Assembly: GCA_016212085.1 (NCBI GenBank)
Contig: JACRHL010000011.1
Location: 64,161 to 128,160 of the forward strand
DNA: 64,000 nucleotides
Direction: 5' to 3'
From: Nitrospirota bacterium
GTDB taxonomy: Bacteria > Nitrospirota > JACRHL01
Numbering within the stretch: the stretch's first letter is position 1; each line of letters begins with the position of its first letter. Below the pieces are notes generated by a model. That model was not told the origin of the DNA and ran no database searches. It saw nothing but the letters and a program-made list of their open reading frames with translations. The position numbers and the translations under genes are program-made. This document shows positions 5,924 to 22,796 of this stretch, in pieces.

Positions 5924-7252
5924 TTAGGAGTCATCCCCCGGCACACTTCCCGGAACCGGTTCCGGGCGGTGCGCGAGCAGGAGGTTGGCGGCGTCGAAGA
6001 TGAGGCGGGTGGCGCCCCGGTACCCCACGTTGAGCTGGTGGGCGGCGCCCAGCCGGTCGAAGTTGGGAATCCCCATCCGCATGAGCGGGATATCCAGCCG
6101 TTGCGCGGCCTGGCGGCCGTGGGAGTGGGTCACCAGCAGGTCGCACCCCCGTGCGGCGGCCTCCAGGTCCTCCAGGTCGCCGACGATCACCGTGTCCGCT
6201 GGGAGGGTTTCCAGGTTGGGCGCGGTGGCGGGGGCGACCGCGCAGGCCACGGTGGCGCCCATGCCCGTGAACAGGTCGGCCAGCGCCGCCAGCAGGTCGG
6301 CCTCGGCGCCGATGGCGATCCTGCGGCCGGCAAAATGGAAGTGGCCGTCCAGCATGGCGTCCTCCAGGCGGCTGCGCTGGCGGCGGACCTTGAGGGGCAC
6401 GTCCTCCATGCTGATCTCGTGCAGGAGCGCCACCAGGCGGTCCACCTCCTCCAGGCCCGAGAGGTGGTCGAACACCGTGTACGGCACGCCGTTGCGCTGG
6501 CACAGCACGTCCGCCGCGGGCTGCATGCTGCGCCCCACGGCGATGGTGTGCTCCGCGCTTCCCATGGCGCGGATGCGGGCCAGGGGGGTACCGCCCAGGG
6601 TGGTGGGCGAGAAGGTGTCCGGCACGTGGCCGTCCAGGGAGCCGGACAGGTCGGGCAGGATGGTGGGCACCAGGCCGAACGCCTCGATCAGCTCCCGGAT
6701 CTCCTCCACGTCTGCGGGGGTGAGGGAGGCGCCCGCCAGCACGTTCACGCGGCCCGACAGGAGGGCGGATTCCCCCTCCGCCAGCTCGCGCACCAGGGCG
6801 GTCACGGCCTTGCCGAAACCGTCCTGGAGCGAGCCGGAAAAATCGGGGGTGGCCACGGGCACGATGGCCACGTGGTTCATCTCCGGGTGCTTCCCGCGGA
6901 ACAGGCGGATCACCCCCTCGATGTCCTCGCCCTTGGTTTCCGTGAGGCCCGTGGTGGCCAGGCCGATGATCCGGGGGCGGGCCTTCTCGTAAATGGTCAG
7001 CAACGCCTGCTCGATGCTTTCCTCGCCGCCCAGGATGGTGGTCACCTCGTTCATGGCGGTGGTCTGCATGGGGATGCTCTCGCGGAAGTGGCGCACGAAC
7101 AGCACCAGCCCGAACGACGTGCAGCCCTGCGAGCCGTGCAGCACCGGCAGGCACTGGTCGAGCCCCAGGAACGCCAGGGCCGCGCCGATGGGCTGGCTCA
7201 TCTTGAGCGGGTTGACGGTGCAGGCCTTGCGGGGTTTGGTGATGAGGGTCAT
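5924..7252 (-). CDS. nifN: Nitrogenase MoFe cofactor biosynthesis protein NifN
   Basis: 442 aa with the N-terminus KACTVNPLKMSQPIGAALAFLGLDQCLPVLHGSQGC typical of NifN. It immediately follows nifE. Confidence 0.9.
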   Translation of the reverse strand: MTLITKPRKACTVNPLKMSQPIGAALAFLGLDQCLPVLHGSQGCTSFGLVLFVRHFRESIPMQTTAMNEVTTILGGEESIEQALLTIYEKARPRIIGLATTGLTETKGEDIEGVIRLFRGKHPEMNHVAIVPVATPDFSGSLQDGFGKAVTALVRELAEGESALLSGRVNVLAGASLTPADVEEIRELIEAFGLVPTILPDLSGSLDGHVPDTFSPTTLGGTPLARIRAMGSAEHTIAVGRSMQPAADVLCQRNGVPYTVFDHLSGLEEVDRLVALLHEISMEDVPLKVRRQRSRLEDAMLDGHFHFAGRRIAIGAEADLLAALADLFTGMGATVACAVAPATAPNLETLPADTVIVGDLEDLEAAARGCDLLVTHSHGRQAAQRLDIPLMRMGIPNFDRLGAAHQLNVGYRGATRLIFDAANLLLAHRPEPVPGSVPGDDS

Positions 7253-8812: not shown

Positions 8813-8830
8813 CAGCATGGATCGTGCCAA
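8813..8830 (-). promoter_or_regulatory. sigma54 (-24/-12) promoter for the nifENWB...nifS operon
   Basis: Minus strand reads TTGGCACGATCCATGCTG. The GG-N10-GC spacing is correct. The -24 element TGGCACG is perfect and the -12 element is ATGCT (4/5). It lies about 150 nt upstream of the nifE start. Confidence 0.6.
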
Positions 8831-9038: not shown

Positions 9039-9058
9039 CTGGCACGCCGATTGCTGCA
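9039..9058 (+). promoter_or_regulatory. sigma54 promoter for the Cache-like/4TM gene
   Basis: CTGGCACGCCGATTGCTGCA matches -24 TGGCACG, then 4 nt, then -12 TTGCT, with GG-N10-GC spacing. It lies about 90 nt upstream of the ATG at 9145. Confidence 0.65.
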
Positions 9059-9144: not shown

Positions 9145-10173
9145 ATGCATGATCTTCACGCCCAGCTGTTCGAATACCGGGTCAACGCACTGCGCGAGAT
9201 CCGGCCCGCCTTGCGGAGCCTGGCGCGGGAGCTCACCGAGGCCACCCCGCAACAGATGGACGGGGTTCTTTGCGACCACCTGCGGGATCTGCCGTCCTGC
9301 GAGCTGCTCTACGTGCTGGACCGGGAGGGGCGGCAGGTCTCGTCGAACGTGCGCCGCCGGGCCTTTGGCTTCGGTATCGCCCTGGACCGGGGCGAGAAGA
9401 ACGTCTCCAGGGCCCACTGCCACTATTACAGGGACGCGGTGACCGCCCTGGAGTGCGTGATCACCGAGCCGTACCGCAGCAAGGCCACCGGCCACCCGGT
9501 GGTGACCGTCACCTATCCGGTGTCGGACGCGGCGGGCAGGCTGGTCATGGTGATCGCGGCGGACATCCGCGCGCGGGACCTGCTCTACCTGGTCACCTGC
9601 GGCAGCCGCCCGGCGGCGTTCCTCAAGCTCGGCCGGGGCATGTACCTGACCATCGCCCTGTTTCTGGGCGTCATCAGCACCGCCCTGCTGGGGCACGCGC
9701 TGGTGGAGTTGTGGGGGCTGGTCACCCACCTGGGGCGCGAGTTCGATCCGGACCGGCTGTTCCAGGCCACCATCATGGCCACCCTGTCCCTGGCGGTGTT
9801 CGACCTGGGGCGGACGGTGTTCGAGGAAGAGGTGCTGTTCATCCGTGACCCGCACAAGCCGGCGGCCATCCGCAAGGCGCTGTCGCGGTTCATGGGCTCC
9901 ATCATCATCGCCCTGGCCATCGAGGCGCTCCTGCTGGTGTTCAAGAGCACCATCAAGGACCCGTCCCTGTTCCCCAACGCGGTGGCGCTGATCGCGGCGG
10001 TCGGCTTCCTGCTGCTCACCCTGGGGGCCTACGTCTACCTGGGCAGCAGGGCCGAGGCGGCGGCTCCGGCGCGGCCCGGCCGGGAACACGAGCCGCCCGC
10101 CGGCGGGCCGCGCGGGACGGGCGACTCCGCCGGGTCGGCCACCGCCTTTGCCGGCAAGCGCCTCGGCCCCTGA
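9145..10173 (+). CDS. Membrane protein with an N-terminal cytoplasmic Cache/PAS-like sensor domain and a C-terminal 4-TM module; no output domain
   Basis: 342 aa. The Cache-like signature is EPYRSKATGHPVVTVTYPVSDAAGRLVMVIAADIRARDL. Four hydrophobic helices follow, containing AVFDLGRTVFEEEVLFIRD...RKALSRF...IALAIEALLLVF, and then a Pro/Gly/Ala-rich tail. Confidence 0.7.
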   Translation: MHDLHAQLFEYRVNALREIRPALRSLARELTEATPQQMDGVLCDHLRDLPSCELLYVLDREGRQVSSNVRRRAFGFGIALDRGEKNVSRAHCHYYRDAVTALECVITEPYRSKATGHPVVTVTYPVSDAAGRLVMVIAADIRARDLLYLVTCGSRPAAFLKLGRGMYLTIALFLGVISTALLGHALVELWGLVTHLGREFDPDRLFQATIMATLSLAVFDLGRTVFEEEVLFIRDPHKPAAIRKALSRFMGSIIIALAIEALLLVFKSTIKDPSLFPNAVALIAAVGFLLLTLGAYVYLGSRAEAAAPARPGREHEPPAGGPRGTGDSAGSATAFAGKRLGP

Positions 10174-10186
10174 CCGGGGCCGTCGC

Positions 10187-11851
10187 TCACGCCGGATAGG
10201 CCGGTGTGGTGCGCAGCCGCGTGTCCGGCACCGGGCCGCCCACGGTAAAATGGTACACGCTTTGCCAGGCGGTGCCGGTGATGCCGAACAGTTCGTGGAC
10301 CGGATCGTCCAGGTAACAGCCGATGCCCGTTCCCGCCAGCCCCCACGCCTCGGCCTCCAGGTACAGCAATTGGCCGATGGCACCGGCCTCCCAGAACAGG
10401 CGGCGGTAGGCCCAGGCGCCGTCCCGCTGGAGGGTGGACGCGAACTCCGCCAGCATGCCCAGGCTGAAGGCGCCCTGGGCGGCGATGTCCTGGTGGCAGC
10501 TCAGCGCCCGCGCGGCGCCGGTGGCGTTGCCCGCCATCAGGAGGCTCAGGTCCAGCCCGTCGGGGCAGCCCGGGGGGCGCTCCCAGGCGAATTCCGGGTG
10601 GCTCAATCCGGCGCGGAGCGCGGCCCCTCGCGCCGGGTCGCGGCACAGCACGTAAAGTCCGGGGGCGATGCCCACGACCCGGTGCACGAACAGCAGCAGG
10701 TGGATCGCCGGGGGCCACGCCATCGCCGCCAGGGCGGGCCCGCCATGCACCAGCCGCCCGAGGGTGGCAAACAAGGCGGCCGCGGGCATGGGGGTGACGC
10801 CATCCATGTCCACCGCGCTGCGCCGCCGCCGGACCAGGCGGCGCAGGGAGGGGGCCTCGCGCCGGGGGGACGCGGGCGCCGCCCACGGCGGCTCCGGCGC
10901 GGGCGCCAACCCGTTCCGAACCGGGGTGGCGGGCTTGACGGTGGCCTCGGCCACCCGGTCCATGTCGTCCCAGGGGACGTGGACCGGGCTCAGGGCGTTG
11001 GCCGTGCCGCGCCAGGGGCCGGCGGCCACGGCGCCGATGCCGTCCGCCCGCAACGATCCGGACGCGGGCGGCCCGCCGTCCGGGAACAGGCAGACGATCA
11101 CGTCCGGGTGCTCCGGTTCCGTCTCCCCATGGGCCGGCCCCGGCGGCCAGGGGAGCCCCAGCAGGGCCGCCACTTGCTCGTCTCCCAGATCGTCCAGTAT
11201 CCGCGCGCTCCAGCCGAGCCCGGCGGCGGCCACGGCCACGGCGGCGATGGCGTGGCCCACGTCGTGCTGGCAGTAGCGGAAGGCGCGCATGCCGTACTTC
11301 CAGGCCTCGCGCCAGTGGATGGACGCAAGGCCGACCAGCACCGCGTTCGGCTCCAGGTCTCCCGCCAGGGCCGCCCAGGTGGCGGCGTCGAGGCGGCGGC
11401 GCACCTCCAGGGCGTGGGGCTCCGGGGCGTAGTGGGCCACCATGCCGCCCGCGCACAGCCCCGCCACCGGGCCGCACACCAGATACCCTTCCGTGGGGTG
11501 CAGGTTGCCGCTGGACGGGTTCACCCGCAGGGCCCAGCGGCTGGGGCCCGCCTCCTTCCAGGCGGAAAGGGCCAGGCTGTCGTAGAACAGCCGGCCGATG
11601 GCGCGGCCGTCCAGCGCCGCCGGGGCAACGGGCGGCCCGGCAAACACCCGGTCGTAGGCCGGATCGGTGCCCACCGCAAGGGGCGCGTCGACGGGACAGC
11701 GCATCAGGGGCAGCAGCTCGGCCCCCGCATAGCGGCGGAAGGGATCGGGCCGGGAGGCCCAGTCCAGCCCCCGGGGGCCCGGCGCATAGCCGTCGAACCG
11801 GTGCTTGCTGGCGGCGTGATAGGCCATCACGGTATCGAGCGGGTCGGCCAT
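10187..11851 (-). CDS. SagB/ThcOx-type dehydrogenase (tandem nitroreductase-fold protein)
   Basis: 554 aa. The N-terminus MADPLDTVMAYHAASKHRF...LDWASRPDPFRRY is a SagB-type start. A second nitroreductase-like half follows (..HPEFAWERPPG..CYLDDPVHELFGI). No YcaO gene or precursor-peptide ORF lies nearby. Confidence 0.7.
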   Translation of the reverse strand: MADPLDTVMAYHAASKHRFDGYAPGPRGLDWASRPDPFRRYAGAELLPLMRCPVDAPLAVGTDPAYDRVFAGPPVAPAALDGRAIGRLFYDSLALSAWKEAGPSRWALRVNPSSGNLHPTEGYLVCGPVAGLCAGGMVAHYAPEPHALEVRRRLDAATWAALAGDLEPNAVLVGLASIHWREAWKYGMRAFRYCQHDVGHAIAAVAVAAAGLGWSARILDDLGDEQVAALLGLPWPPGPAHGETEPEHPDVIVCLFPDGGPPASGSLRADGIGAVAAGPWRGTANALSPVHVPWDDMDRVAEATVKPATPVRNGLAPAPEPPWAAPASPRREAPSLRRLVRRRRSAVDMDGVTPMPAAALFATLGRLVHGGPALAAMAWPPAIHLLLFVHRVVGIAPGLYVLCRDPARGAALRAGLSHPEFAWERPPGCPDGLDLSLLMAGNATGAARALSCHQDIAAQGAFSLGMLAEFASTLQRDGAWAYRRLFWEAGAIGQLLYLEAEAWGLAGTGIGCYLDDPVHELFGITGTAWQSVYHFTVGGPVPDTRLRTTPAYPA

Positions 11852-11891
11852 GGGGGCAGTGTACGCCCGCGTCCCCGCCCCGGACACCGCT

Positions 11892-14928: not shown

Positions 14929-15153
14929 CGTCACCTCCGTGTCGAAAGCGTGGGCATGTATTACTGGGGCACACTTCGAACGTACACCCGTGGCGGCCGC
15001 TGCGCCAGCCGGTAATGCCCTGATTTAATTCGATGTGGCGGTTGCGCAGCGCCCTGTTTGGCGCCACTGTTAAGCAAGGCCCCAAGCGGATGAATCCCCT
15101 GGGCGAGTGGGGATGGGGTTGTTTTCCCACTCCCCAACGCGTGGAGAGACACC

Positions 15154-15465
15154 ATGGCATATGTGGTCACCGAGAACTGTCGGGGTTGCCGCTACACCGA
15201 CTGCGTAACGGTCTGCCCGGTGGAGTGCTTCTGGGGCGACGGGGAGATGCTGTACATCGACCCGGAAACCTGCATCGATTGCGGCGCCTGCATCCCCGAG
15301 TGCCCGGTGGAGGCCATCTTTGCGGACGACGAAGTGCCCGCCGGCCAGGAGGAATGGATCGGGATCAACGCCGAGCGCTGTGCCAGCGGGGAGCTGGTGA
15401 ACGTCACCGCGAAGGCGGCCGCCCTCGCCGGTGCCGACGCGCGCAAGGCCGCCCTCGGTTTCTAG
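15154..15465 (+). CDS. fdxA: 7Fe ([3Fe-4S][4Fe-4S]) ferredoxin, Azotobacter FdxA type
   Basis: 103 aa, [27 protein letters not shown]...[17 protein letters not shown], the FdxA cysteine pattern. Confidence 0.85.
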
Positions 15466-15492
15466 GCTGAGGGTCGCCCCCGCGCCCCGGCG

Positions 15493-15975
15493 TCATAACG
15501 ACGGGCGTTCGGCCTCGGGAATGGTCAACGCCAGTTCGAGCCGCTTGATCTCGTCCAGGTGGCCCTGCTCCAGGCGCGACAGATCCTCGAAAAAGGCCCG
15601 CATGGACGGATCGTCCGTTTCCGTGGCCAGGTCGCGGTAACTGTCGCGGGCCTCGGCCTCGCGCCGCCGGGCGAGCTTCAGGATCTCCTTGCTGTCGCCC
15701 TTGCGCACCGTCTTCTCGTCCTCCGGAGAGATCACGCCGGAGACCCGCTCTTCCAGTTTCTCCACGTAGGCGAACGCGTCGAAATCCAGGTTGAGCGGTG
15801 GTTCCGACACGCGGCGGGCCAGATCCCGCGCGTGGTCCACCTCCAGGTCGGCCAGTTCCATGAACAGGACGCGGGAGTCGTCCCGGTCGGTCAGTGTCGT
15901 GGCCAGGCGGTAAAAGGCGCGCGACTTGACCTCGCTCAACAGCGCCCGCTTGACGGTTTTGATGGATGTTGCCAT
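15493..15975 (-). CDS. Ferritin-like diiron-carboxylate protein (rubrerythrin/bacterioferritin-like four-helix bundle)
   Basis: 160 aa with two ExxH motifs (LEVDHARDL and LEQGHLDE), each preceded by a Glu-containing helix. About 65% identical to the C-terminal half of the ORF at 16486-17439. Confidence 0.65.
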   Translation of the reverse strand: MATSIKTVKRALLSEVKSRAFYRLATTLTDRDDSRVLFMELADLEVDHARDLARRVSEPPLNLDFDAFAYVEKLEERVSGVISPEDEKTVRKGDSKEILKLARRREAEARDSYRDLATETDDPSMRAFFEDLSRLEQGHLDEIKRLELALTIPEAERPSL

Positions 15976-16001
15976 GGTGCCCTCCTGTTGCCGGGGTGCC
16001 G

Positions 16002-16027
16002 CCCGGCGCGCACGAGGCCGCGCCGGG
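16002..16027. other. Perfect 9-bp stem-loop between the Rieske and ferritin-like genes (CCCGGCGCG-N8-CGCGCCGGG)
   Basis: Read directly from the sequence. There is no downstream T-run, so this may be an mRNA processing or attenuation structure rather than an intrinsic terminator. Confidence 0.4.
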
Positions 16028-16041
16028 AGCCGGCGGCCGGC

Positions 16042-16350
16042 TTACACCTCGATTTCAATTTCCTCCCCGGTGACGCGGACGTTGTAGCGCGTCACGTCCT
16101 CCCCCGCCGGCGGCATGGTGACCTCCCCGGAGGCGATGGTGAAATGGGCGCCGTGCCAGGGACACACCACCTCGTCCCCCTGGATGAGCCCCTCGGACAG
16201 CGGCCCCCCCATGTGGGTGCAGGCGTCGTCGATGGCGAAGAACGTGCCACCCAGGTTGAACAGCGCGATGCGCCTGGCCCCCACCCGCACGCATTTCGCG
16301 CCCTGGTCGGGTATTTCCATCTTCTTGGCGATGGCGATGAATTGCGACAT
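16042..16350 (-). CDS. Small Rieske [2Fe-2S] ferredoxin-like protein
   Basis: 103 aa from MSQFIAIAKKMEIP. The Rieske ligands are CTHMGGPLSEG and CPWHGAHF. A GGAGG RBS lies before the ATG. Confidence 0.8.
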   Translation of the reverse strand: MSQFIAIAKKMEIPDQGAKCVRVGARRIALFNLGGTFFAIDDACTHMGGPLSEGLIQGDEVVCPWHGAHFTIASGEVTMPPAGEDVTRYNVRVTGEEIEIEV

Positions 16351-16485
16351 GGCGATAGCCTCCTTGCGCCATGGCAGCCGCGCCCTCCCGTCGGGATGCC
16401 GTCCTGATTTGACTATATGCCCCCCACCGGCGCTGCGCCAGGAAGGGGGGGGCACATGGGCGGGCAACCGCCCCCGGCCGCGCCG

Positions 16486-17439
16486 TCACGCGGCCGGGGG
16501 CGCCGCGTCGGCCGTCCCGAGGTGTGCTTCCAGCCGCCGGAGCCCTTCGAGATGGGCCTGTTCGGTGCGGGAGAGCTCCTCGCAGAACGCCCGCATCAGC
16601 GGATCGTCCGCCTCCTGCGCCAGCTCCCGGTAATTGTCCCGCGCCTCCGCCTCGCGGCGCTTGGCCAGCTTCAACACGGCCCTGGGGTCCCCCTCGCGCA
16701 CGGTTTTTTCGTCCTGCGGCGCCAGGGTGCCGGAGATCTGTTTCTCCCACTTGCTCACGTAAGCGAACGGGTCGAAATCCAGGTTGAGCGGCGGCCTGGA
16801 GGCGCGCTCGGCGAGTTCGCGTGCGTGGCCCACCTCCAGCGCGGCCAGGTCCAGGAACAGGGCGCGGGAGTCGTCCCGGTTCGTCAGATCGGCGGCCAGG
16901 CGGTAGAAGGCCCGCGACTTGATTTCGCTCAGCAGTGCGCTCTTGATGGTTTTGGCGGGGGTGAGCGCGGAGGTCTCGGTGCTGTTCTCGGCGTGGGCGC
17001 TGAGCCGCTGGAAGGCGCCCAGGCACACCACGCCCAGGCTGGCGACGGCGAGCAGCAGCGTGGGGTAGATGATCTGCGCCATCTCCTGCGTGGCCGCGCT
17101 GAAGATGAACACCAGCGCCTCCAGGTAGGCGGCGATGGTCACGATCACCAGGAACTTGGTGAGGGTCTTGCGGGCCTCGGCGGAGGAGCGCAGTTCCCGG
17201 TTGCGCAAGACCTCCTCCTCGATCAGGTATTTGCTCACGTCGAACACCGCCACGGCGACGACGATGAGGCCGATGGCGTCCAGCATCCGGGGCACCGCCT
17301 CGGTGCTGGAGTGGAACGCCAGCCACACGTCCCAGCCGCCGGCGCCGATCATGGCAAGGCTGATCAGCAGCAGCGAGGTGCTCGCCGTGATGTACATGAT
17401 GTGGGTGACGAGGGTGTGTAGGCGGTTCTGGTTCCTCAT
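16486..17439 (-). CDS. Membrane-anchored ferritin-like diiron protein: an N-terminal 4-TM module fused to a ferritin-like domain
   Basis: 317 aa from MRNQNRLHTLVTHIMYITAST. The TM module (AVFDVSKYLIEEEVLRNRE...RKTLTKF...IAAYLEALVFIF) is homologous to the C-terminal module of the 9145-10173 protein. The C-terminal about 160 aa is a paralog of the ORF at 15493-15975. Confidence 0.65.
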   Translation of the reverse strand: MRNQNRLHTLVTHIMYITASTSLLLISLAMIGAGGWDVWLAFHSSTEAVPRMLDAIGLIVVAVAVFDVSKYLIEEEVLRNRELRSSAEARKTLTKFLVIVTIAAYLEALVFIFSAATQEMAQIIYPTLLLAVASLGVVCLGAFQRLSAHAENSTETSALTPAKTIKSALLSEIKSRAFYRLAADLTNRDDSRALFLDLAALEVGHARELAERASRPPLNLDFDPFAYVSKWEKQISGTLAPQDEKTVREGDPRAVLKLAKRREAEARDNYRELAQEADDPLMRAFCEELSRTEQAHLEGLRRLEAHLGTADAAPPAA

Positions 17440-17735
17440 CGCTCGATGTTTGTTGGGGGTGGGGGCATTCCGGCCGTCTCGCCAATCATGGCACCTGGCG
17501 GCCGCCTGCGAAAGGGCGGGGTAATACTCCCGTTGCAACCGCGGCGGGTGGCGCCCCGGTGTCGCGAAAACCCGGCCGATGTCATAATGAAAACATCGGG
17601 TTGGCTTCGCATCCGGAGAGGCAAAACGATTCCAGCCAACCCCCTGGAGGGTCGTCCGCCCCGGCCACCCCCGCTTCCAGCGGGCGGTTCGGAATGGACG
17701 GATTCCGCGCGGCGTAACGGTGCCGCTCCGCTCGG

Positions 17736-17781
17736 GGCGCCTTGCACTCGGGGGCGCTCGCGACGGTTAATAGAGGCGCCC
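17736..17781. repeat. Copy B of the intergenic repeat motif, about 25 bp upstream of the fumC start
   Basis: GGCGCCTTGCACTCGGGGGCGCTCGCGACGGTTAATAGAGGCGCCC, compared with copy A CCGCCTTGCACTCACGCCGCTCGCGACGCTTATTAGAGGTGCCCC. Confidence 0.55.
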
Positions 17782-17805
17782 AGGACAAGCGATGAGACGT
17801 GGACC

Positions 17806-19215
17806 ATGAAACCCGCCGGAACCCGCACGGAACACGACGCCATGGGGCCGGTCGAGGTGCCGGAGGCGGCATACTGGGGGGCATCCACCCAGCGCGCGCT
17901 GGCCAACTTTCCCATCAGCGGCAAAACGTTCCCGCGGCCGTTCATCGCGGCGCTGGGGCTGATCAAGGCCGCCGCCGCCCAGGCCAACCATGAGCTGGGC
18001 CTGCTGCCGCCGGAGCTGGCCTTGGCGATAGCCAAGGCCGCGTGGGAGGTGGCGGATGGCCGCTGGGACGACCAGTTTCCGGTGGACGTGTTCCAGACCG
18101 GCTCCGGTACCTCCACCCACATGAACGCCAACGAGGTGATCGCCAACCGGGCGGCGGAGTTGCTGGGCGGCCGCCGCGGCGACCGGGTTGTGCACCCCAA
18201 CGACCACGTGAATCTGGGGCAGTCGTCCAACGACGTGATCCCGACCACCGTGCACCTGGCGGCGCTGCTGACCCTGCGCGACCGCTTGCTGCCGGCGTTG
18301 ACGCGGCTGGAGACCGCCCTGAACCAGAAGGCCGATGCGTTCTGGCCGGTGGTGAAGACCGGCCGCACCCATTTACAGGACGCCATTCCGGTGCGCCTGG
18401 GCCAGGAGTTCGGCGGCTACGCGGCCCAGGTCGGGCAGGCCCGCGTCCGGCTGGACCAGGCCCGGCGCGAGCTGTCGGCGGTGGCCCTGGGGGGCACGGC
18501 GGTGGGGACCGGCTTCGGCGCGCACCGGCGCTTTGCGGAACGGGCCCTGTTTCACCTGTCGGAGGCGGCGGGGGTCGCCGTCCACGAAACCGGCAACCAC
18601 TTCGCGGCCCAGGCCTCCCTGGACGGGGTGGTGGCGGCCAGCGGCGCCGTGCGCGGCGCCGCCCTGGCGCTGGTCAAGGTGGCCGGCGACATCGCCCTGC
18701 TCGGTTCCGGGCCAAGGGCCGGATACGGCGAGATCACCCTGCCGGCGGTGCAGCCCGGCAGCTCCATGATGCCCGGCAAGGTCAATCCGGTGATCGCCGA
18801 GGCGCTCATCCAGGCGTGCGCCCAGGTGGTGGGCAACGATGCGGCGATCGCCTTCGCCGCCCAGCGCGGCGCGTTCGAGCTGAACACCATGTGGCCGGTG
18901 GCGGGCTGCAACCTGGTCGGTTCCATGGAGCTGCTGGCCGCCGCCGCCGGGGTGTTCTGCGAGCGCTGCGTGGTGGGGATCACCGCCACCGGGCGTGGCC
19001 CGGCGCTGGTGGCATCGGGCCTGGCCCTGGCCACGGCCCTGGTGCCGGCCATCGGCTACGACCGGGCCGCCGCCATCGCCCGGGAGGCGGCGGAGACGGG
19101 CCGCACCATCCCCGAGGTGGCGCGGGAACGCACGAACCTGTCCGACGCCGAACTGGCCCGGCTGCTGGACCCGGCATCCATGACCGGACCCGGCGACGGG
19201 ACGGAGGACACGTGA
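17806..19215 (+). CDS. fumC: Class II fumarate hydratase (fumarase C; fumarate lyase/aspartase family)
   Basis: 469 aa. N-terminus ...TEHDAMGPVEVPEAAYWGASTQRALANF. Carries the lyase signature GSSMMPGKVNP and the SSNDVIPT motif. Confidence 0.85.
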   Translation: MKPAGTRTEHDAMGPVEVPEAAYWGASTQRALANFPISGKTFPRPFIAALGLIKAAAAQANHELGLLPPELALAIAKAAWEVADGRWDDQFPVDVFQTGSGTSTHMNANEVIANRAAELLGGRRGDRVVHPNDHVNLGQSSNDVIPTTVHLAALLTLRDRLLPALTRLETALNQKADAFWPVVKTGRTHLQDAIPVRLGQEFGGYAAQVGQARVRLDQARRELSAVALGGTAVGTGFGAHRRFAERALFHLSEAAGVAVHETGNHFAAQASLDGVVAASGAVRGAALALVKVAGDIALLGSGPRAGYGEITLPAVQPGSSMMPGKVNPVIAEALIQACAQVVGNDAAIAFAAQRGAFELNTMWPVAGCNLVGSMELLAAAAGVFCERCVVGITATGRGPALVASGLALATALVPAIGYDRAAAIAREAAETGRTIPEVARERTNLSDAELARLLDPASMTGPGDGTEDT

Positions 19216-21257: not shown

Positions 21258-22796
21258 ATGCCTTTCTTGCGCCCGTCCGCCGCCCTGTCCCTCATCGCAG
21301 CTTGCCTGCTGCTGTTCATTGGCGGCACCTCCCACGCCCACACATTGCACGTCACCGACGACGCGTCGTCGGATCGGTCGGCGCATTCAAGACTGTCCGG
21401 CGACGGTGGCGACATGGTGTTGCGCGCCGCCGCCGTGCCTGATCGCGACGGGGAGGACCGCGACCGCCGTGGCCGGGACCATGGGGACGATGACGACCAC
21501 GACACCGCTGGCGCCGCGTTGGCGCTGGCCCGCTTTGACCTGTCGACGCTGGCCGCCGGCGCCGATATCGAGAAGGCCACGCTGCGCCTGTGGGTAACCC
21601 GGGTTGCCCACCCCGGCACCGTGCACGTGCGGCTGATGCTGGACGGGTGGTCGGAACGCGACCGCTACCTGCGGGCGGAAATGGACCCGGTGCCGGTGCG
21701 GTCGTTCGCCGTTTACGCGGATGACGGCGGGCGCACCCTGACCGTCGATATCACCGACGCCGTGCGTCTCTGGCGCGCGGGCGTCCTTCCCAACCACGGC
21801 CTGGCGCTGACCACGGATGATGCCAGCCTGTGGCTGGCCAGCAAGGAAAACACCGCCACCTCCCACGCCGCCGAGGTGGAGGTGGCGCTGGCGCCAACGC
21901 GGGCACTGGCGGATTCCGGCGGCTCACCCGGCTCCACCGGGCCGCAAGGCCCCACCGGTCCGCAAGGCCCGGCGGGCGTGCCGGGTGACCCCGGCCCCGC
22001 CGGCCCGCAAGGCCCCACCGGTCCGCAAGGCCTGGCGGGCGCGCCGGGTGACCCCGGTCCCGCCGGCCCGCAAGGCCTCACCGGTCCGCAAGGCCTGGCG
22101 GGCGCGCCGGGTGACCCCGGCACCGCCGGTCCGCAAGGTCCCGCCGGTCCGCAAGGCTTGGCGGGCGTGCAGGGCGACCCCGGCCCCGCCGGCCCGCAAG
22201 GCCCCGCCGGTCCGCAAGGCCTCACCGGTCCGCAAGGCCCGGCGGGCGCGCCGGGGGCGACAGGCCCGGTTGGGCCACAGGGGCTCACGGGGCCGCAGGG
22301 CCCTCCCGGCCCCGGCGGGTTGTCCGGCGTGGTGATCGGCCCGCACCTGGTCAGCGTCACGACGCCGGACGCGGTCACCCTGGACGTTGCCGGGATGCCG
22401 GGCGTGGCGTTCGGGGCCGCCTACCTGGCGAGCCCGTACATCCTCACCACCACGTGGCGCGACCCGCTCACCCTGGCCATGGACGTGCCGGCGGACGGGG
22501 TGATTCTGATCCAGTACACCCTGACCTGCGAGCTGGTGTCGGCGGGCGCGCCGGCCGCGCTGGCGAGCGGGTTTGTCAGCAACCTGCCGGTGCAGCTCAT
22601 CCCATCGGCGGACCCGGGCACGTTCCATTGCACCACCGGACCGTCGCCGCAGACGGACGTCATGCGCCAGAAGCTGTTCCCGGTGCAGAAGGGGGTGAAC
22701 AACTTCTACCTGCGCGCCGCCATGCAGACACCCACCGGCCTGGGCATGTTGCGCAACATCACCATGTCGGGCATGTATTTCCCGGCCACCTACTGA
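21258..22796 (+). CDS. Secreted collagen-like protein: signal peptide, an N-terminal beta-rich domain that may be DNRLRE/CBM96-like, about 45 Gly-X-Y triplets, and a C-terminal globular domain
   Basis: 512 aa. [29 protein letters not shown] looks like a signal peptide. [16 protein letters not shown] resembles a DNRLRE-like pattern. A long uninterrupted [19 protein letters not shown]... run follows. The roughly 150-aa C-terminal domain ends ...YFPATY. Confidence 0.75.
21918..22330 (+). repeat. Tandem 63-bp (21-codon) repeats encoding the collagen-like region (about 4.5 near-identical units, with 9-bp sub-periodicity)
   Basis: The unit ggccccaccggtccgcaaggcc(c/t)ggcgggcg(t/c)gccgggtgaccccgg(c/t)cccgccggcccgcaa recurs with only a few substitutions. 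Confidence 0.8.

What the first reader, a model, noticed from the sequence alone, without database searches (positions are those of the whole stretch)
15493..17439. Duplicated ferritin-like diiron / Rieske / membrane-anchored ferritin-like gene trio next to fdxA and korAB
Three co-directional genes encode a soluble 160-aa ferritin-like ExxH x2 protein, a 103-aa Rieske [2Fe-2S] protein, and a 317-aa protein whose C-terminal half is about 65% identical to the first gene product. This points to a recent tandem duplication with acquisition of a membrane anchor. The combination of diiron domains with a Rieske electron carrier, beside a 7Fe ferredoxin and oxygen-sensitive 2-oxoacid:ferredoxin oxidoreductase and nif genes, suggests an O2/ROS-scavenging or iron-handling redox system. 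That would protect oxygen-labile enzymes. I do not know this arrangement as a described system.
Basis: partly seen in the sequence, partly recalled or inferred. Interest (0 to 1): 0.65.

Follow-up and report, generated by a model that had tools for sequence, protein, structure and literature searches.

The report
Rieske ferredoxin with paired diiron proteins
Three neighbouring genes encode a small Rieske iron-sulfur electron carrier and two related two-iron proteins, one fused to a four-helix membrane domain. This is a rare, undescribed gene set that probably reduces peroxide or oxygen at the inner face of the membrane, but that function is untested.

Summary
On the minus strand lie a 317-aa membrane/ferritin-like fusion (17439..16486), a 103-aa Rieske ferredoxin (16353..16042) and a 160-aa ferritin-like protein (15975..15493). 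The two ferritin-like domains are 65% identical. Both keep a symmetric E-x29-ExxH diiron ligand set.

The interpretation needs three corrections:
- The duplication is old, because both copies occur in a second organism with 57% GC.
- The "anchor" is a full member of an independent, uncharacterised 4-TM family (771 representative clusters), distantly PsiE-like.
- Linkage to fdxA, korAB and nif is not conserved, and there is no sigma-54 promoter match.

The conserved core is Rieske plus ferritin-like protein. Relatives carry Rieske, one or two ferritin-like genes, then a membrane globin–PsiE protein.

The best explanation is a Rieske-fed, rubredoxin-less rubrerythrin-type (per)oxidase at the cytoplasmic membrane face (confidence about 0.4). 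Rivals are MbfA-like or Bfd-like iron handling, a redox sensor, and a lipid or quinone hydroxylase.

I rate it a new variant of a known kind, of moderate interest. Everything about function is inferred.

The parts
16486..17439 (-). TM-FLP: a 317-aa fusion protein. Residues 1-~155 form a PsiE-like 4-TM domain. Residues ~160-317 form a rubrerythrin/erythrin-type diiron four-helix bundle, predicted to be cytoplasmic.
   Evidence: ORF. PF02915 over residues 165-303. Four hydrophobic segments; K+R fall in the N-terminus and the TM2-TM3 loop. NCBI names it only 'ferritin family protein', MBI5136994.1.
16966..17439 (-). The 4-TM membrane domain of TM-FLP. Its conserved motif is AVFDVsKYLIEEEVlRxRELR...EARxxLTKF...LEALV...YP.
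   Evidence: Alignment A2. Family of 771 representative clusters, almost all stand-alone at 155-210 aa. No Pfam family. AF2 model of four long helices, pLDDT 86.7, with no PDB fold match. hhalign to the PsiE domain of globin-PsiE proteins scores 33, E 5.6e-5, over 124 columns, against <=19 for reversed or shuffled controls.
16486..16965 (-). Diiron ferritin-like domain of TM-FLP. Ligands are E172, E202/H205, E263, E293/H296.
16042..16353 (-). Rieske-type [2Fe-2S] ferredoxin, 103 aa, soluble. Ligands are C45, H47, C64, H67.
   Evidence: PF00355 E 1.5e-17. The closest solved proteins are the BphF, TodB and CarAc ferredoxins of oxygenase systems, E 1e-15 to 1e-12. Below the NCBIfam cutoffs for HcaC and NirD. 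Motif.
15493..15975 (-). FLP1: a soluble 160-aa diiron ferritin-like (erythrin-type) protein. Ligands are E15, E45/H48, E106, E136/H139.
   Evidence: AF2 model: four long helices plus two short helices in the B-C connection, pLDDT 84.6. The best PDB fold match is 2oh3, a COG1633 protein.
17474..17532 (-). Conserved block upstream of TM-FLP, shared with L002. Its nature is unresolved: an upstream ORF, an N-terminal extension or an operator.
   Evidence: 30/41 nt and 13/20 codons are conserved in otherwise diverged intergenic DNA. The block is in frame with TM-FLP here but out of frame in L002.

Best explanation
The trio is a small electron-transfer module that works at the cytoplasmic face of the inner membrane.

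Proposed mechanism:
1. The Rieske ferredoxin takes electrons from a cellular reductase. That reductase is not encoded in the trio; a GltD-like NAD(P)H oxidoreductase sits next to it in L002.
2. The Rieske protein delivers the electrons one at a time to the diiron sites of the two ferritin-like paralogs. It plays the role that the fused rubredoxin domain plays in rubrerythrin, and that FNR plays for ferriperoxin.
3. The reduced diiron sites turn H2O2, organic hydroperoxides or O2 into water.

One paralog is held at the membrane, and probably oligomerised, by a PsiE-like 4-TM domain. The soluble paralog probably pairs with it, because erythrin-type bundles work as dimers.

Shown: gene order, domain identities, ligand conservation, cytoplasmic topology by the positive-inside rule, and the conserved Rieske-FLP linkage.

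Inferred: electron flow from Rieske to diiron site, the substrate, heterodimer formation, and the role of the membrane domain.
For: - Complete, symmetric diiron ligand sets, E-x6-Y-x22-ExxH twice, are invariant or nearly so across the subfamily.
- The domain matches the Pfam Rubrerythrin model over its full length.
- The Rieske protein has all four cluster ligands. It is most similar to soluble ferredoxins that feed oxygenases.
- Rieske-FLP adjacency recurs in four independent contigs at 62-78% Rieske identity: window, L002, L014 and L015. L018 adds the Rieske with only an FLP remnant.
- Relatives place the pair directly upstream of a membrane globin-PsiE protein, an O2/redox-reactive haem on the same kind of 4-TM domain. 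That protein class has been proposed to act in redox sensing or membrane e-/H+ transfer (PMC8076648).
- The FLP domain also matches the ferritin domain of PRK12775, a model named as a hydroxylase/glutamate synthase beta subunit/ferritin-domain protein. A GltD-like gene is adjacent in L002. Both point to reductant supply.
- A stand-alone relative sits beside msrB, msrA and a thioredoxin-like gene.
- There is precedent: rubredoxin-less rubrerythrin homologues are peroxidases that use a separate reductase (ferriperoxin, PMC3317640).
Against: - There is no experimental or expression data.
- Helix C carries a single invariant Glu (E106) with no Glu three residues away. By my recollection rubrerythrin and sulerythrin have an ExxE pair there, so the site would be the six-ligand type shared with bacterioferritin, MbfA, AOX and Coq7. 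That does not specify peroxidase chemistry.
- The nearest sequence matches are iron-handling proteins: the MbfA N-terminal domain, EncB and EncFtn.
- Rubrerythrin and sulerythrin structures score poorly or not at all.
- No reductase is encoded in the trio.
- In L018 the FLP gene has decayed while the Rieske and globin genes persist, so the Rieske may primarily serve the membrane protein.
Confidence: 0.4

Rival explanations
1. Iron handling. TM-FLP is a functional analogue of the membrane-bound ferritin MbfA: a cytoplasmic diiron domain captures or oxidises Fe2+ and hands it to a membrane domain for export or sequestration. Alternatively the FLPs store iron and the Rieske protein acts like Bfd, reducing Fe3+ for release.
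For: - The best NCBIfam match of both FLP domains is the ferritin-like part of the iron exporter MbfA, E 4e-8 and 7.5e-7.
- The best solved-structure sequence matches are the encapsulated ferroxidases EncB and EncFtn.
- The ligand set is the six-ligand type.
- The membrane domain has invariant or near-invariant acidic residues inside TM2 and TM3 (D67, E107) and a Glu-rich cytoplasmic loop.
- From my own knowledge, a small [2Fe-2S] protein encoded next to a ferritin-like gene parallels bfd-bfr.
Against: - The membrane domain is unrelated to VIT1/CCC1: no Pfam or NCBIfam hit.
- That family has no known transport role.
- The MbfA match scores 33 bits against a 450-bit cutoff and covers only part of the domain.
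- Linkage to a membrane globin in relatives is hard to explain by iron export.
- No Fur or Irr type site was identified, but this was only inspected by eye.
Confidence: 0.2
2. Redox, O2 or iron sensor. TM-FLP uses its diiron domain as a sensory cofactor coupled to a PsiE-type 4-TM 'transmitter'. This mirrors the membrane-bound globin-coupled sensors that occupy the equivalent position in relatives. The Rieske protein and FLP1 would reset or modulate it.
For: - The 4-TM domain is distantly similar to the PsiE domain of globin-PsiE proteins.
- Such proteins lie next to Rieske-FLP in L013, L014 and L018.
- GsGCS is discussed as a possible redox sensor (PMC8076648).
- A response regulator gene flanks the trio in L002.
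Against: - No output domain such as a kinase, cyclase or MCP is present.
- The PsiE function is itself unknown.
- The GsGCS authors consider intramolecular signalling unlikely.
- Keeping two diiron paralogs and a dedicated electron carrier fits catalysis better than sensing.
Confidence: 0.15
3. Membrane-associated diiron oxygenase or oxidase. It would act on a lipid or quinone in the manner of Coq7, AOX or PTOX, with the Rieske ferredoxin as electron donor as in toluene-4-monooxygenase.
For: - The E-x6-Y-x22-ExxH spacing of the first half equals the motif I recall for Coq7 (for the spacing; the Coq7 motif is from memory).
- One copy is tethered to the membrane.
- The Rieske protein is closest to ferredoxins of oxygenase systems.
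- A conserved 40-residue insert between helices B and C (F65, D66, Y70, E75, R91, G93 invariant) could form a substrate or partner site.
Against: - There is no Pfam match to COQ7, AOX, desaturase or monooxygenase families at E <= 0.1.
- At 160 aa the protein is small for a substrate-binding hydroxylase.
- No biosynthetic genes are linked in any of the contexts seen.
Confidence: 0.12

Closest known systems
Rubredoxin-less rubrerythrin homologues ('erythrins': ferriperoxin, sulerythrin, aerobic-type rubrerythrin)
   Same: - A ~140-160-aa four-helix-bundle diiron protein without a rubredoxin domain.
- It matches Pfam PF02915.
- It needs a separate electron donor; ferriperoxin uses FNR plus NADPH (PMC3317640).
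   Different: - The donor here is predicted to be a co-encoded Rieske ferredoxin.
- Helix C lacks the ExxE pair that I recall for this group.
- A conserved ~40-residue B-C insert is present.
- Sulerythrin and rubrerythrin chains score poorly or not at all in the sequence search.
- The gene context differs: aerobic-type rubrerythrins cluster with DUF3501 (PMC5114695).
- One copy is fused to a membrane domain.
MbfA (membrane-bound ferritin; erythrin-VIT1 iron exporter of alpha-proteobacteria)
   Same: - A cytoplasmic erythrin-type diiron domain covalently joined to a polytopic membrane domain.
- It is the best NCBIfam match of both FLP domains.
   Different: - The domain order is reversed, with the membrane domain N-terminal here.
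- The membrane domain is a 4-TM PsiE-like family, not VIT1/CCC1.
- The score is far below the family cutoff (33 against 450 bits).
- A Rieske partner and a soluble paralog are present.
Membrane-bound globin-coupled sensor GsGCS (globin-PsiE)
   Same: - An O2/redox-reactive metal domain fused to a 4-TM PsiE-type domain.
- Homologues occupy the membrane-protein slot next to Rieske-FLP in related contigs.
- In GsGCS the 4-TM domain drives tetramerisation (PMC8076648).
   Different: - The cofactor domain is a diiron bundle, not a haem globin.
- That domain is C-terminal rather than N-terminal to the membrane domain.
- The 4-TM domain is only distantly related (hhalign E ~5e-5) and has a longer charged TM2-TM3 loop.
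Rieske ferredoxin with diiron hydroxylase systems (e.g. T4moC-T4moH), and bfd-bfr
   Same: A small [2Fe-2S] carrier is encoded beside a carboxylate-bridged diiron four-helix-bundle protein and is presumed to reduce it.
   Different: - There is no large hydroxylase, effector protein or reductase gene.
- The FLP is not a 24-mer-type bacterioferritin by sequence.
- Bfd is a different [2Fe-2S] fold.

Membership tests
Ferritin-like superfamily, rubrerythrin/erythrin branch (Pfam PF02915) | Match to the family profile above the curated cutoff, over the whole domain | tested here: met
   FLP1 scores 40.6 bits and TM-FLP 35.9 bits against a cutoff of 22.8. They cover profile positions 3-136 of 137.
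Ferritin-like superfamily, rubrerythrin/erythrin branch (Pfam PF02915) | Diiron ligands E, ExxH, E, ExxH on helices A-D | tested here: met
   E45, H48, E106, E136 and H139 are invariant, and E15 is present in at least 90% of 10 subfamily sequences. Both halves share the same spacing.
Ferritin-like superfamily, rubrerythrin/erythrin branch (Pfam PF02915) | Four-helix-bundle fold | tested here: met
   The AF2 model has pLDDT 84.6 with helices at 2-28, 32-57, 95-119 and 123-151. The top Foldseek hits are all ferritin-like proteins, led by 2oh3, but E is only ~0.02.
Classical rubrerythrin | C-terminal (or N-terminal) rubredoxin-like Cys4 domain | tested here: not met
   No such domain or CxxC pairs occur in either protein.
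Classical rubrerythrin / sulerythrin | Seventh ligand: a second Glu on helix C (ExxE). This feature is recalled from memory. | tested here: not met
   Helix C reads RRE106-A-E108-A-R-D. No Glu lies at +/-3 from E106.
MbfA iron exporter (NCBIfam NF045676) | Score above the equivalog cutoff, and presence of a VIT1/CCC1 membrane domain | tested here: not met
   33 and 28.9 bits against a cutoff of 450. There is no VIT1 hit.
Rieske [2Fe-2S] ferredoxin | CxH...CxxH cluster-binding motif and a Rieske domain profile match | tested here: met
   Motif C45-T-H47-x16-C64-P-W-H67. PF00355 scores 63.7 bits against a cutoff of 20.3. It resembles the BphF, TodB and CarAc ferredoxins.
HcaC / NirD / AndAb specific Rieske subfamilies | Score above the NCBIfam equivalog cutoff | tested here: not met
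   77.8 against 113, 70.2 against 150, 70.0 against 74.65 and 68.9 against 150.
PsiE family (Pfam PF06146) | Profile match of the 4-TM domain | tested here: inconclusive
   The window protein has no Pfam hit, and only 3 of 113 family members hit PsiE weakly. Profile-profile alignment to the PsiE domains of globin-PsiE proteins scores 33, E 5.6e-5, spanning all four helices, against <=19 in 10 controls. A sequence of E. coli PsiE recalled from memory gave nothing.
nif regulon / NifA-sigma54-dependent genes | A -24/-12 promoter upstream | tested here: not met
   TGGCAC-N5-TTGCW matches lie at 8814-8829 (before nifE) and 9040-9055. None lies in 17440-17805 at up to 2 mismatches.

The most novel reading that the evidence does not exclude
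The Rieske protein, the diiron paralogs and the PsiE-like 4-TM domain form a previously unrecognised class of membrane-bound, ferredoxin-driven oxygen or peroxide reductase. In it the 4-TM domain is an active partner, for example conducting protons or passing electrons to or from the quinone pool. The membrane-tethered redox head is evolutionarily interchangeable between a haem globin and a diiron bundle. This would also give the widespread orphan 4-TM family, PsiE and the membrane globins their first functional context.
Probability: 0.15. Interest if true: 0.7.

Novelty: new variant of a known kind. Interest (0 to 1): 0.45.

Why it matters
If the mechanism holds, it adds a third way of feeding electrons to rubrerythrin-type diiron centres: a dedicated Rieske ferredoxin, alongside a fused rubredoxin domain and free FNR.

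It would also be a second, independently evolved "membrane-bound ferritin-like" architecture beside MbfA.

The swap between a diiron head and a globin head on related 4-TM domains, in the same gene neighbourhood, offers a concrete handle on two orphan groups. These are the PsiE-like 4-TM proteins (771 or more representative clusters, one of them in Azotobacter) and the membrane-bound globin-coupled "sensors".

The practical impact is limited. The subfamily is rare, with about 15 sequences found, and is so far known only from metagenomes.

Tried and rejected
- **Recent duplication: rejected.** The paralogs are also present in L002, and the fused copies cluster together. The NJ tree has no bootstrap support; the bootstrap run timed out.
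- **Simple membrane anchor: rejected.** The domain belongs to a conserved, independent family.
- **Fusion of previously adjacent genes: no support.** Stand-alone 4-TM genes in Azotobacter (L003-5) and in L006/7 and L019-21 have unrelated neighbours and no FLP or Rieske gene nearby.
- **nif or kor co-regulation: no support**.
- **Fold search of the 4-TM model against PDB:** only spurious BAR-domain and GPCR hits.
- **Genome-collection scan:** only one distant hit, at 35% identity, in an Armatimonadetes MAG.
- **Rfam on 15000-18000:** nothing above noise.
- **Sigma-70 and terminator scan:** nothing above shuffles.
- **Other domain fusions in the 4-TM family:** one META-domain fusion (P0016) and none among ten longer members.
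- **Globin-PsiE or GltD-like genes elsewhere in the window:** none found.
- **Literature:** I found no paper describing a Rieske-erythrin-PsiE module.
Full report
**1. The observation**

The window is high-GC, about 68% over the trio. Three co-directional minus-strand genes occupy 17439..15493:
- TM-FLP, 17439..16486, 317 aa.
- A Rieske protein, 16353..16042, 103 aa.
- FLP1, 15975..15493, 160 aa.

The gaps between them are 132 and 66 bp. Codon-position GC supports all three as genes. FLP1 and the Rieske gene have AGGAGG ribosome-binding sites.

FLP1 aligns to residues 160-316 of TM-FLP at 102/157 = 65% identity, E 3e-73. Pfam gives Rubrerythrin PF02915 for both, over the full profile length, and Rieske PF00355 for the middle gene.

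The stated neighbours are real:
- An FdxA-like ferredoxin, convergent with the trio.
- korA and korB.
- A SagB/nitroreductase-domain protein.
- nifE, nifN, nifW and nifB.

NCBI annotates the source as a Nitrospirota MAG and calls both FLPs simply "ferritin family protein".

**2. The diiron proteins**

An alignment of ten subfamily members (A1) shows E45, H48, E106, E136 and H139 invariant, and E15 and Y113 nearly so. The two halves have identical spacing, E-x6-Y-x22-ExxH, in both the window FLP1 and TM-FLP.

The AlphaFold model has pLDDT 84.6. It is a four-helix bundle with two extra short helices in a conserved ~40-residue B-C connection, where F65, D66, Y70, E75, R91 and G93 are invariant. 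Foldseek returns only ferritin-like folds, led by the COG1633 protein 2oh3, with weak E-values.

By sequence the closest characterised relatives are:
- The ferritin-like domain of the iron exporter MbfA.
- The encapsulated ferroxidases EncB and EncFtn.
- The ferritin domain of PRK12775, a model named as a hydroxylase/GltD-like/ferritin-domain protein.

There is no rubredoxin domain. Helix C has no second Glu at ±3 from E106. From memory, the site is therefore the six-ligand type shared with bacterioferritin, MbfA, AOX and Coq7, not the seven-ligand rubrerythrin/sulerythrin type. On that basis I file the proteins as erythrin-type members of the rubrerythrin branch, not as rubrerythrins proper.

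**3. The Rieske protein**

It carries the motif C45-x-H47-x16-C64-x2-H67. It is most similar to the soluble Rieske ferredoxins BphF, TodB, CarAc and NdoA, which shuttle electrons to oxygenases. It falls below the cutoffs of every specific NCBIfam subfamily. Neither it nor FLP1 has an N-terminal hydrophobic segment that would suggest a signal peptide (by inspection of the sequences).

**4. The membrane domain**

Residues 1-~155 of TM-FLP contain four hydrophobic helices. All the K/R residues lie in the N-terminus and the TM2-TM3 loop, so the N-terminus, that loop and the C-terminal diiron domain should all be cytoplasmic.

This domain is not an ad hoc anchor. Database hits to it are stand-alone ~175-aa proteins, including an Azotobacter hypothetical protein. 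An exhaustive profile search finds 771 representative clusters, almost all 155-210 aa. The motif AVFDVxKYLIEEEVxRxRELR...LEALV...YP is strongly conserved.

Pfam and NCBIfam have no model for it. The AlphaFold model (pLDDT 86.7) has no meaningful PDB match.

Profile-profile comparison with the PsiE domains of 120 globin-PsiE proteins gives score 33, E 5.6e-5, over 124 columns spanning all four helices. One reversed and eight block-shuffled controls scored 7.5-18.9. I take this as moderate evidence for distant PsiE-superfamily membership.

Fusion to a ferritin-like domain is exceptional. Only the window protein and P0002 (82% identical) show it.

**5. Conservation and variants of the module**

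The FLP subfamily is rare, with about 15 sequences from two word-index searches and a metagenome scan. It splits into two groups.

*Group A* consists of high-GC stand-alone FLPs without a Rieske neighbour (L009-L012). In L009 the gene lies between Calvin-cycle genes and msrB, msrA and a thioredoxin-like gene.

*Group B* is linked to a Rieske gene. Its arrangements are:

| Contig(s) | Gene order |
|---|---|
| Window and L002 | TM-FLP → Rieske → FLP |
| L015 with L013 (86% identical overlapping DNA) | Rieske → FLPa → FLPb → protoglobin-PsiE membrane protein |
| L014 | Rieske → FLP → protoglobin-... |
| L018 | Rieske → 21-codon remnant of FLP → protoglobin-PsiE |

So Rieske-FLP adjacency, two FLP paralogs, and a PsiE-type 4-TM protein carrying an O2/redox-reactive cofactor all recur, while the flanks do not. 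L002 has a GltD-like Fe-S flavoprotein and a response regulator where the window has an aspartase/fumarase-like gene and fdxA. More distant globin-PsiE genes lack the module.

The membrane-fused copies of the window and L002 are 73-77% identical and cluster together. FLP1 is only 64% identical to its L002 counterpart. L002 also has 57% GC against 68% here. The duplication and fusion are therefore old.

**6. Regulation**

Good sigma-54 promoter matches precede nifE (8814-8829) and the divergent dCache-like gene (9040-9055). None precedes the trio. The sigma-70 and terminator scans and Rfam gave nothing.

A 59-bp block upstream of TM-FLP (17532..17474) is conserved with L002, with a codon-like substitution pattern. 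It is in frame with TM-FLP only in the window. Its meaning is unresolved, as is the exact start codon.

**7. Mechanism**

The most economical reading is an electron-transfer chain: reductase → Rieske ferredoxin → diiron centres → H2O2, ROOH or O2, at the cytoplasmic membrane surface.

- Rubredoxin-less rubrerythrin homologues are proven peroxidases that use a separate reductase (ferriperoxin, PMC3317640).
- Rieske ferredoxins are classical donors to diiron bundles (from my own knowledge of the toluene-4-monooxygenase system).
- The match to the PRK12775 ferritin domain and the GltD-like neighbour point to reductant supply.
- The interchange with a membrane globin, for which redox sensing or membrane e-/H+ transfer has been proposed (PMC8076648), points to O2/redox chemistry rather than iron transport.

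I give this model 0.4. The rivals are:
- Iron handling, MbfA-like or Bfd-like: 0.2. It is supported by the nearest sequence relatives and the acidic membrane residues.
- A diiron redox sensor: 0.15.
- A membrane lipid or quinone oxygenase: 0.12.

None can be excluded by computation alone.

**8. Novelty**

Every part belongs to a known superfamily, but I found no description of the combination:
- A dedicated Rieske partner for erythrin-type proteins.
- A second kind of membrane-bound ferritin-like protein.
- The diiron/globin swap on PsiE-like domains.

I rate it a new variant of a known kind, with interest 0.45. It is rare, known only from metagenomes, and has no functional data. It does offer a tractable entry into two orphan membrane-protein groups.

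Noticed in passing
window 17474-17532 (minus strand); L002 ~1170-1230: A block upstream of TM-FLP is conserved with L002 in otherwise diverged intergenic DNA: 30/41 nt, and 13/20 codons ('REYYPALSQAAARCHDWRDG' against 'REFSLMLSQAAVRCQDCKNG'). Many of the substitutions are synonymous. It is in frame with TM-FLP in the window (ORF from TTG at 17538) but out of frame in L002. It could be an upstream ORF, an N-terminal extension or an operator.
   Followed up: partly
window 8814-8829 (-) and 9040-9055 (+): Two divergent sigma-54-type promoter matches: TGGCACGATCCATGCT before nifE, and a perfect TGGCACGCCGATTGCT before a 342-aa gene (9145-10173). That gene has only a sub-threshold dCache/PDC sensor match. 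It may be a nif-co-regulated sensor.
   Followed up: no
L018 1096-1372: Between the Rieske gene and the globin-PsiE gene, only the first ~21 codons of an FLP gene remain ('VAISVRTIQRAILREIEAQAF', then a stop). The diiron gene has been lost while the Rieske and membrane globin genes persist.
   Followed up: partly
L009 1655-9811: A stand-alone FLP homologue (5995-6483) sits between Calvin-cycle genes (transketolase, phosphoribulokinase, fructose-bisphosphatase) and msrB, msrA and a thioredoxin-like gene. No Rieske gene is nearby. The neighbouring genes were identified by inspecting the translations, not by profile search.
   Followed up: partly
window 10187-11887 (-): A 566-aa protein with SagB-type dehydrogenase/nitroreductase domains lies directly downstream of korB, between the kor genes and the nif cluster. 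Its function is unclear.
   Followed up: no
L002 vs window 15493-17439: TM-FLP is 82% identical at the protein level between a 57% GC contig and this 68% GC window. That suggests horizontal transfer of the trio or unusually divergent genomic GC among its carriers.
   Followed up: no
window 17446-19215 (+): The aspartase/fumarase-like ORF is probably over-extended. The family profiles align from residue ~120, so the likely start is near 17806. That leaves a ~365-bp divergent intergenic region shared with TM-FLP.
   Followed up: partly
window 21258-22796 (+): This ORF has a collagen-like triple-helix repeat match (PF01391, E 4.5e-20). In 70% GC DNA this may be a Gly/Pro-rich translation artefact. 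It overlaps a glycosyltransferase ORF.
   Followed up: no
L003-L005 8001-8639 (Azotobacter vinelandii chromosome): The stand-alone 4-TM family member in Azotobacter lies about 1 kb downstream of a GAF/sigma-54 activator gene, which is itself preceded by a ModE-like (HTH_1 + TOBE) regulator gene, and next to a TerC gene. The activator gene identities rest on domain composition only.
   Followed up: no
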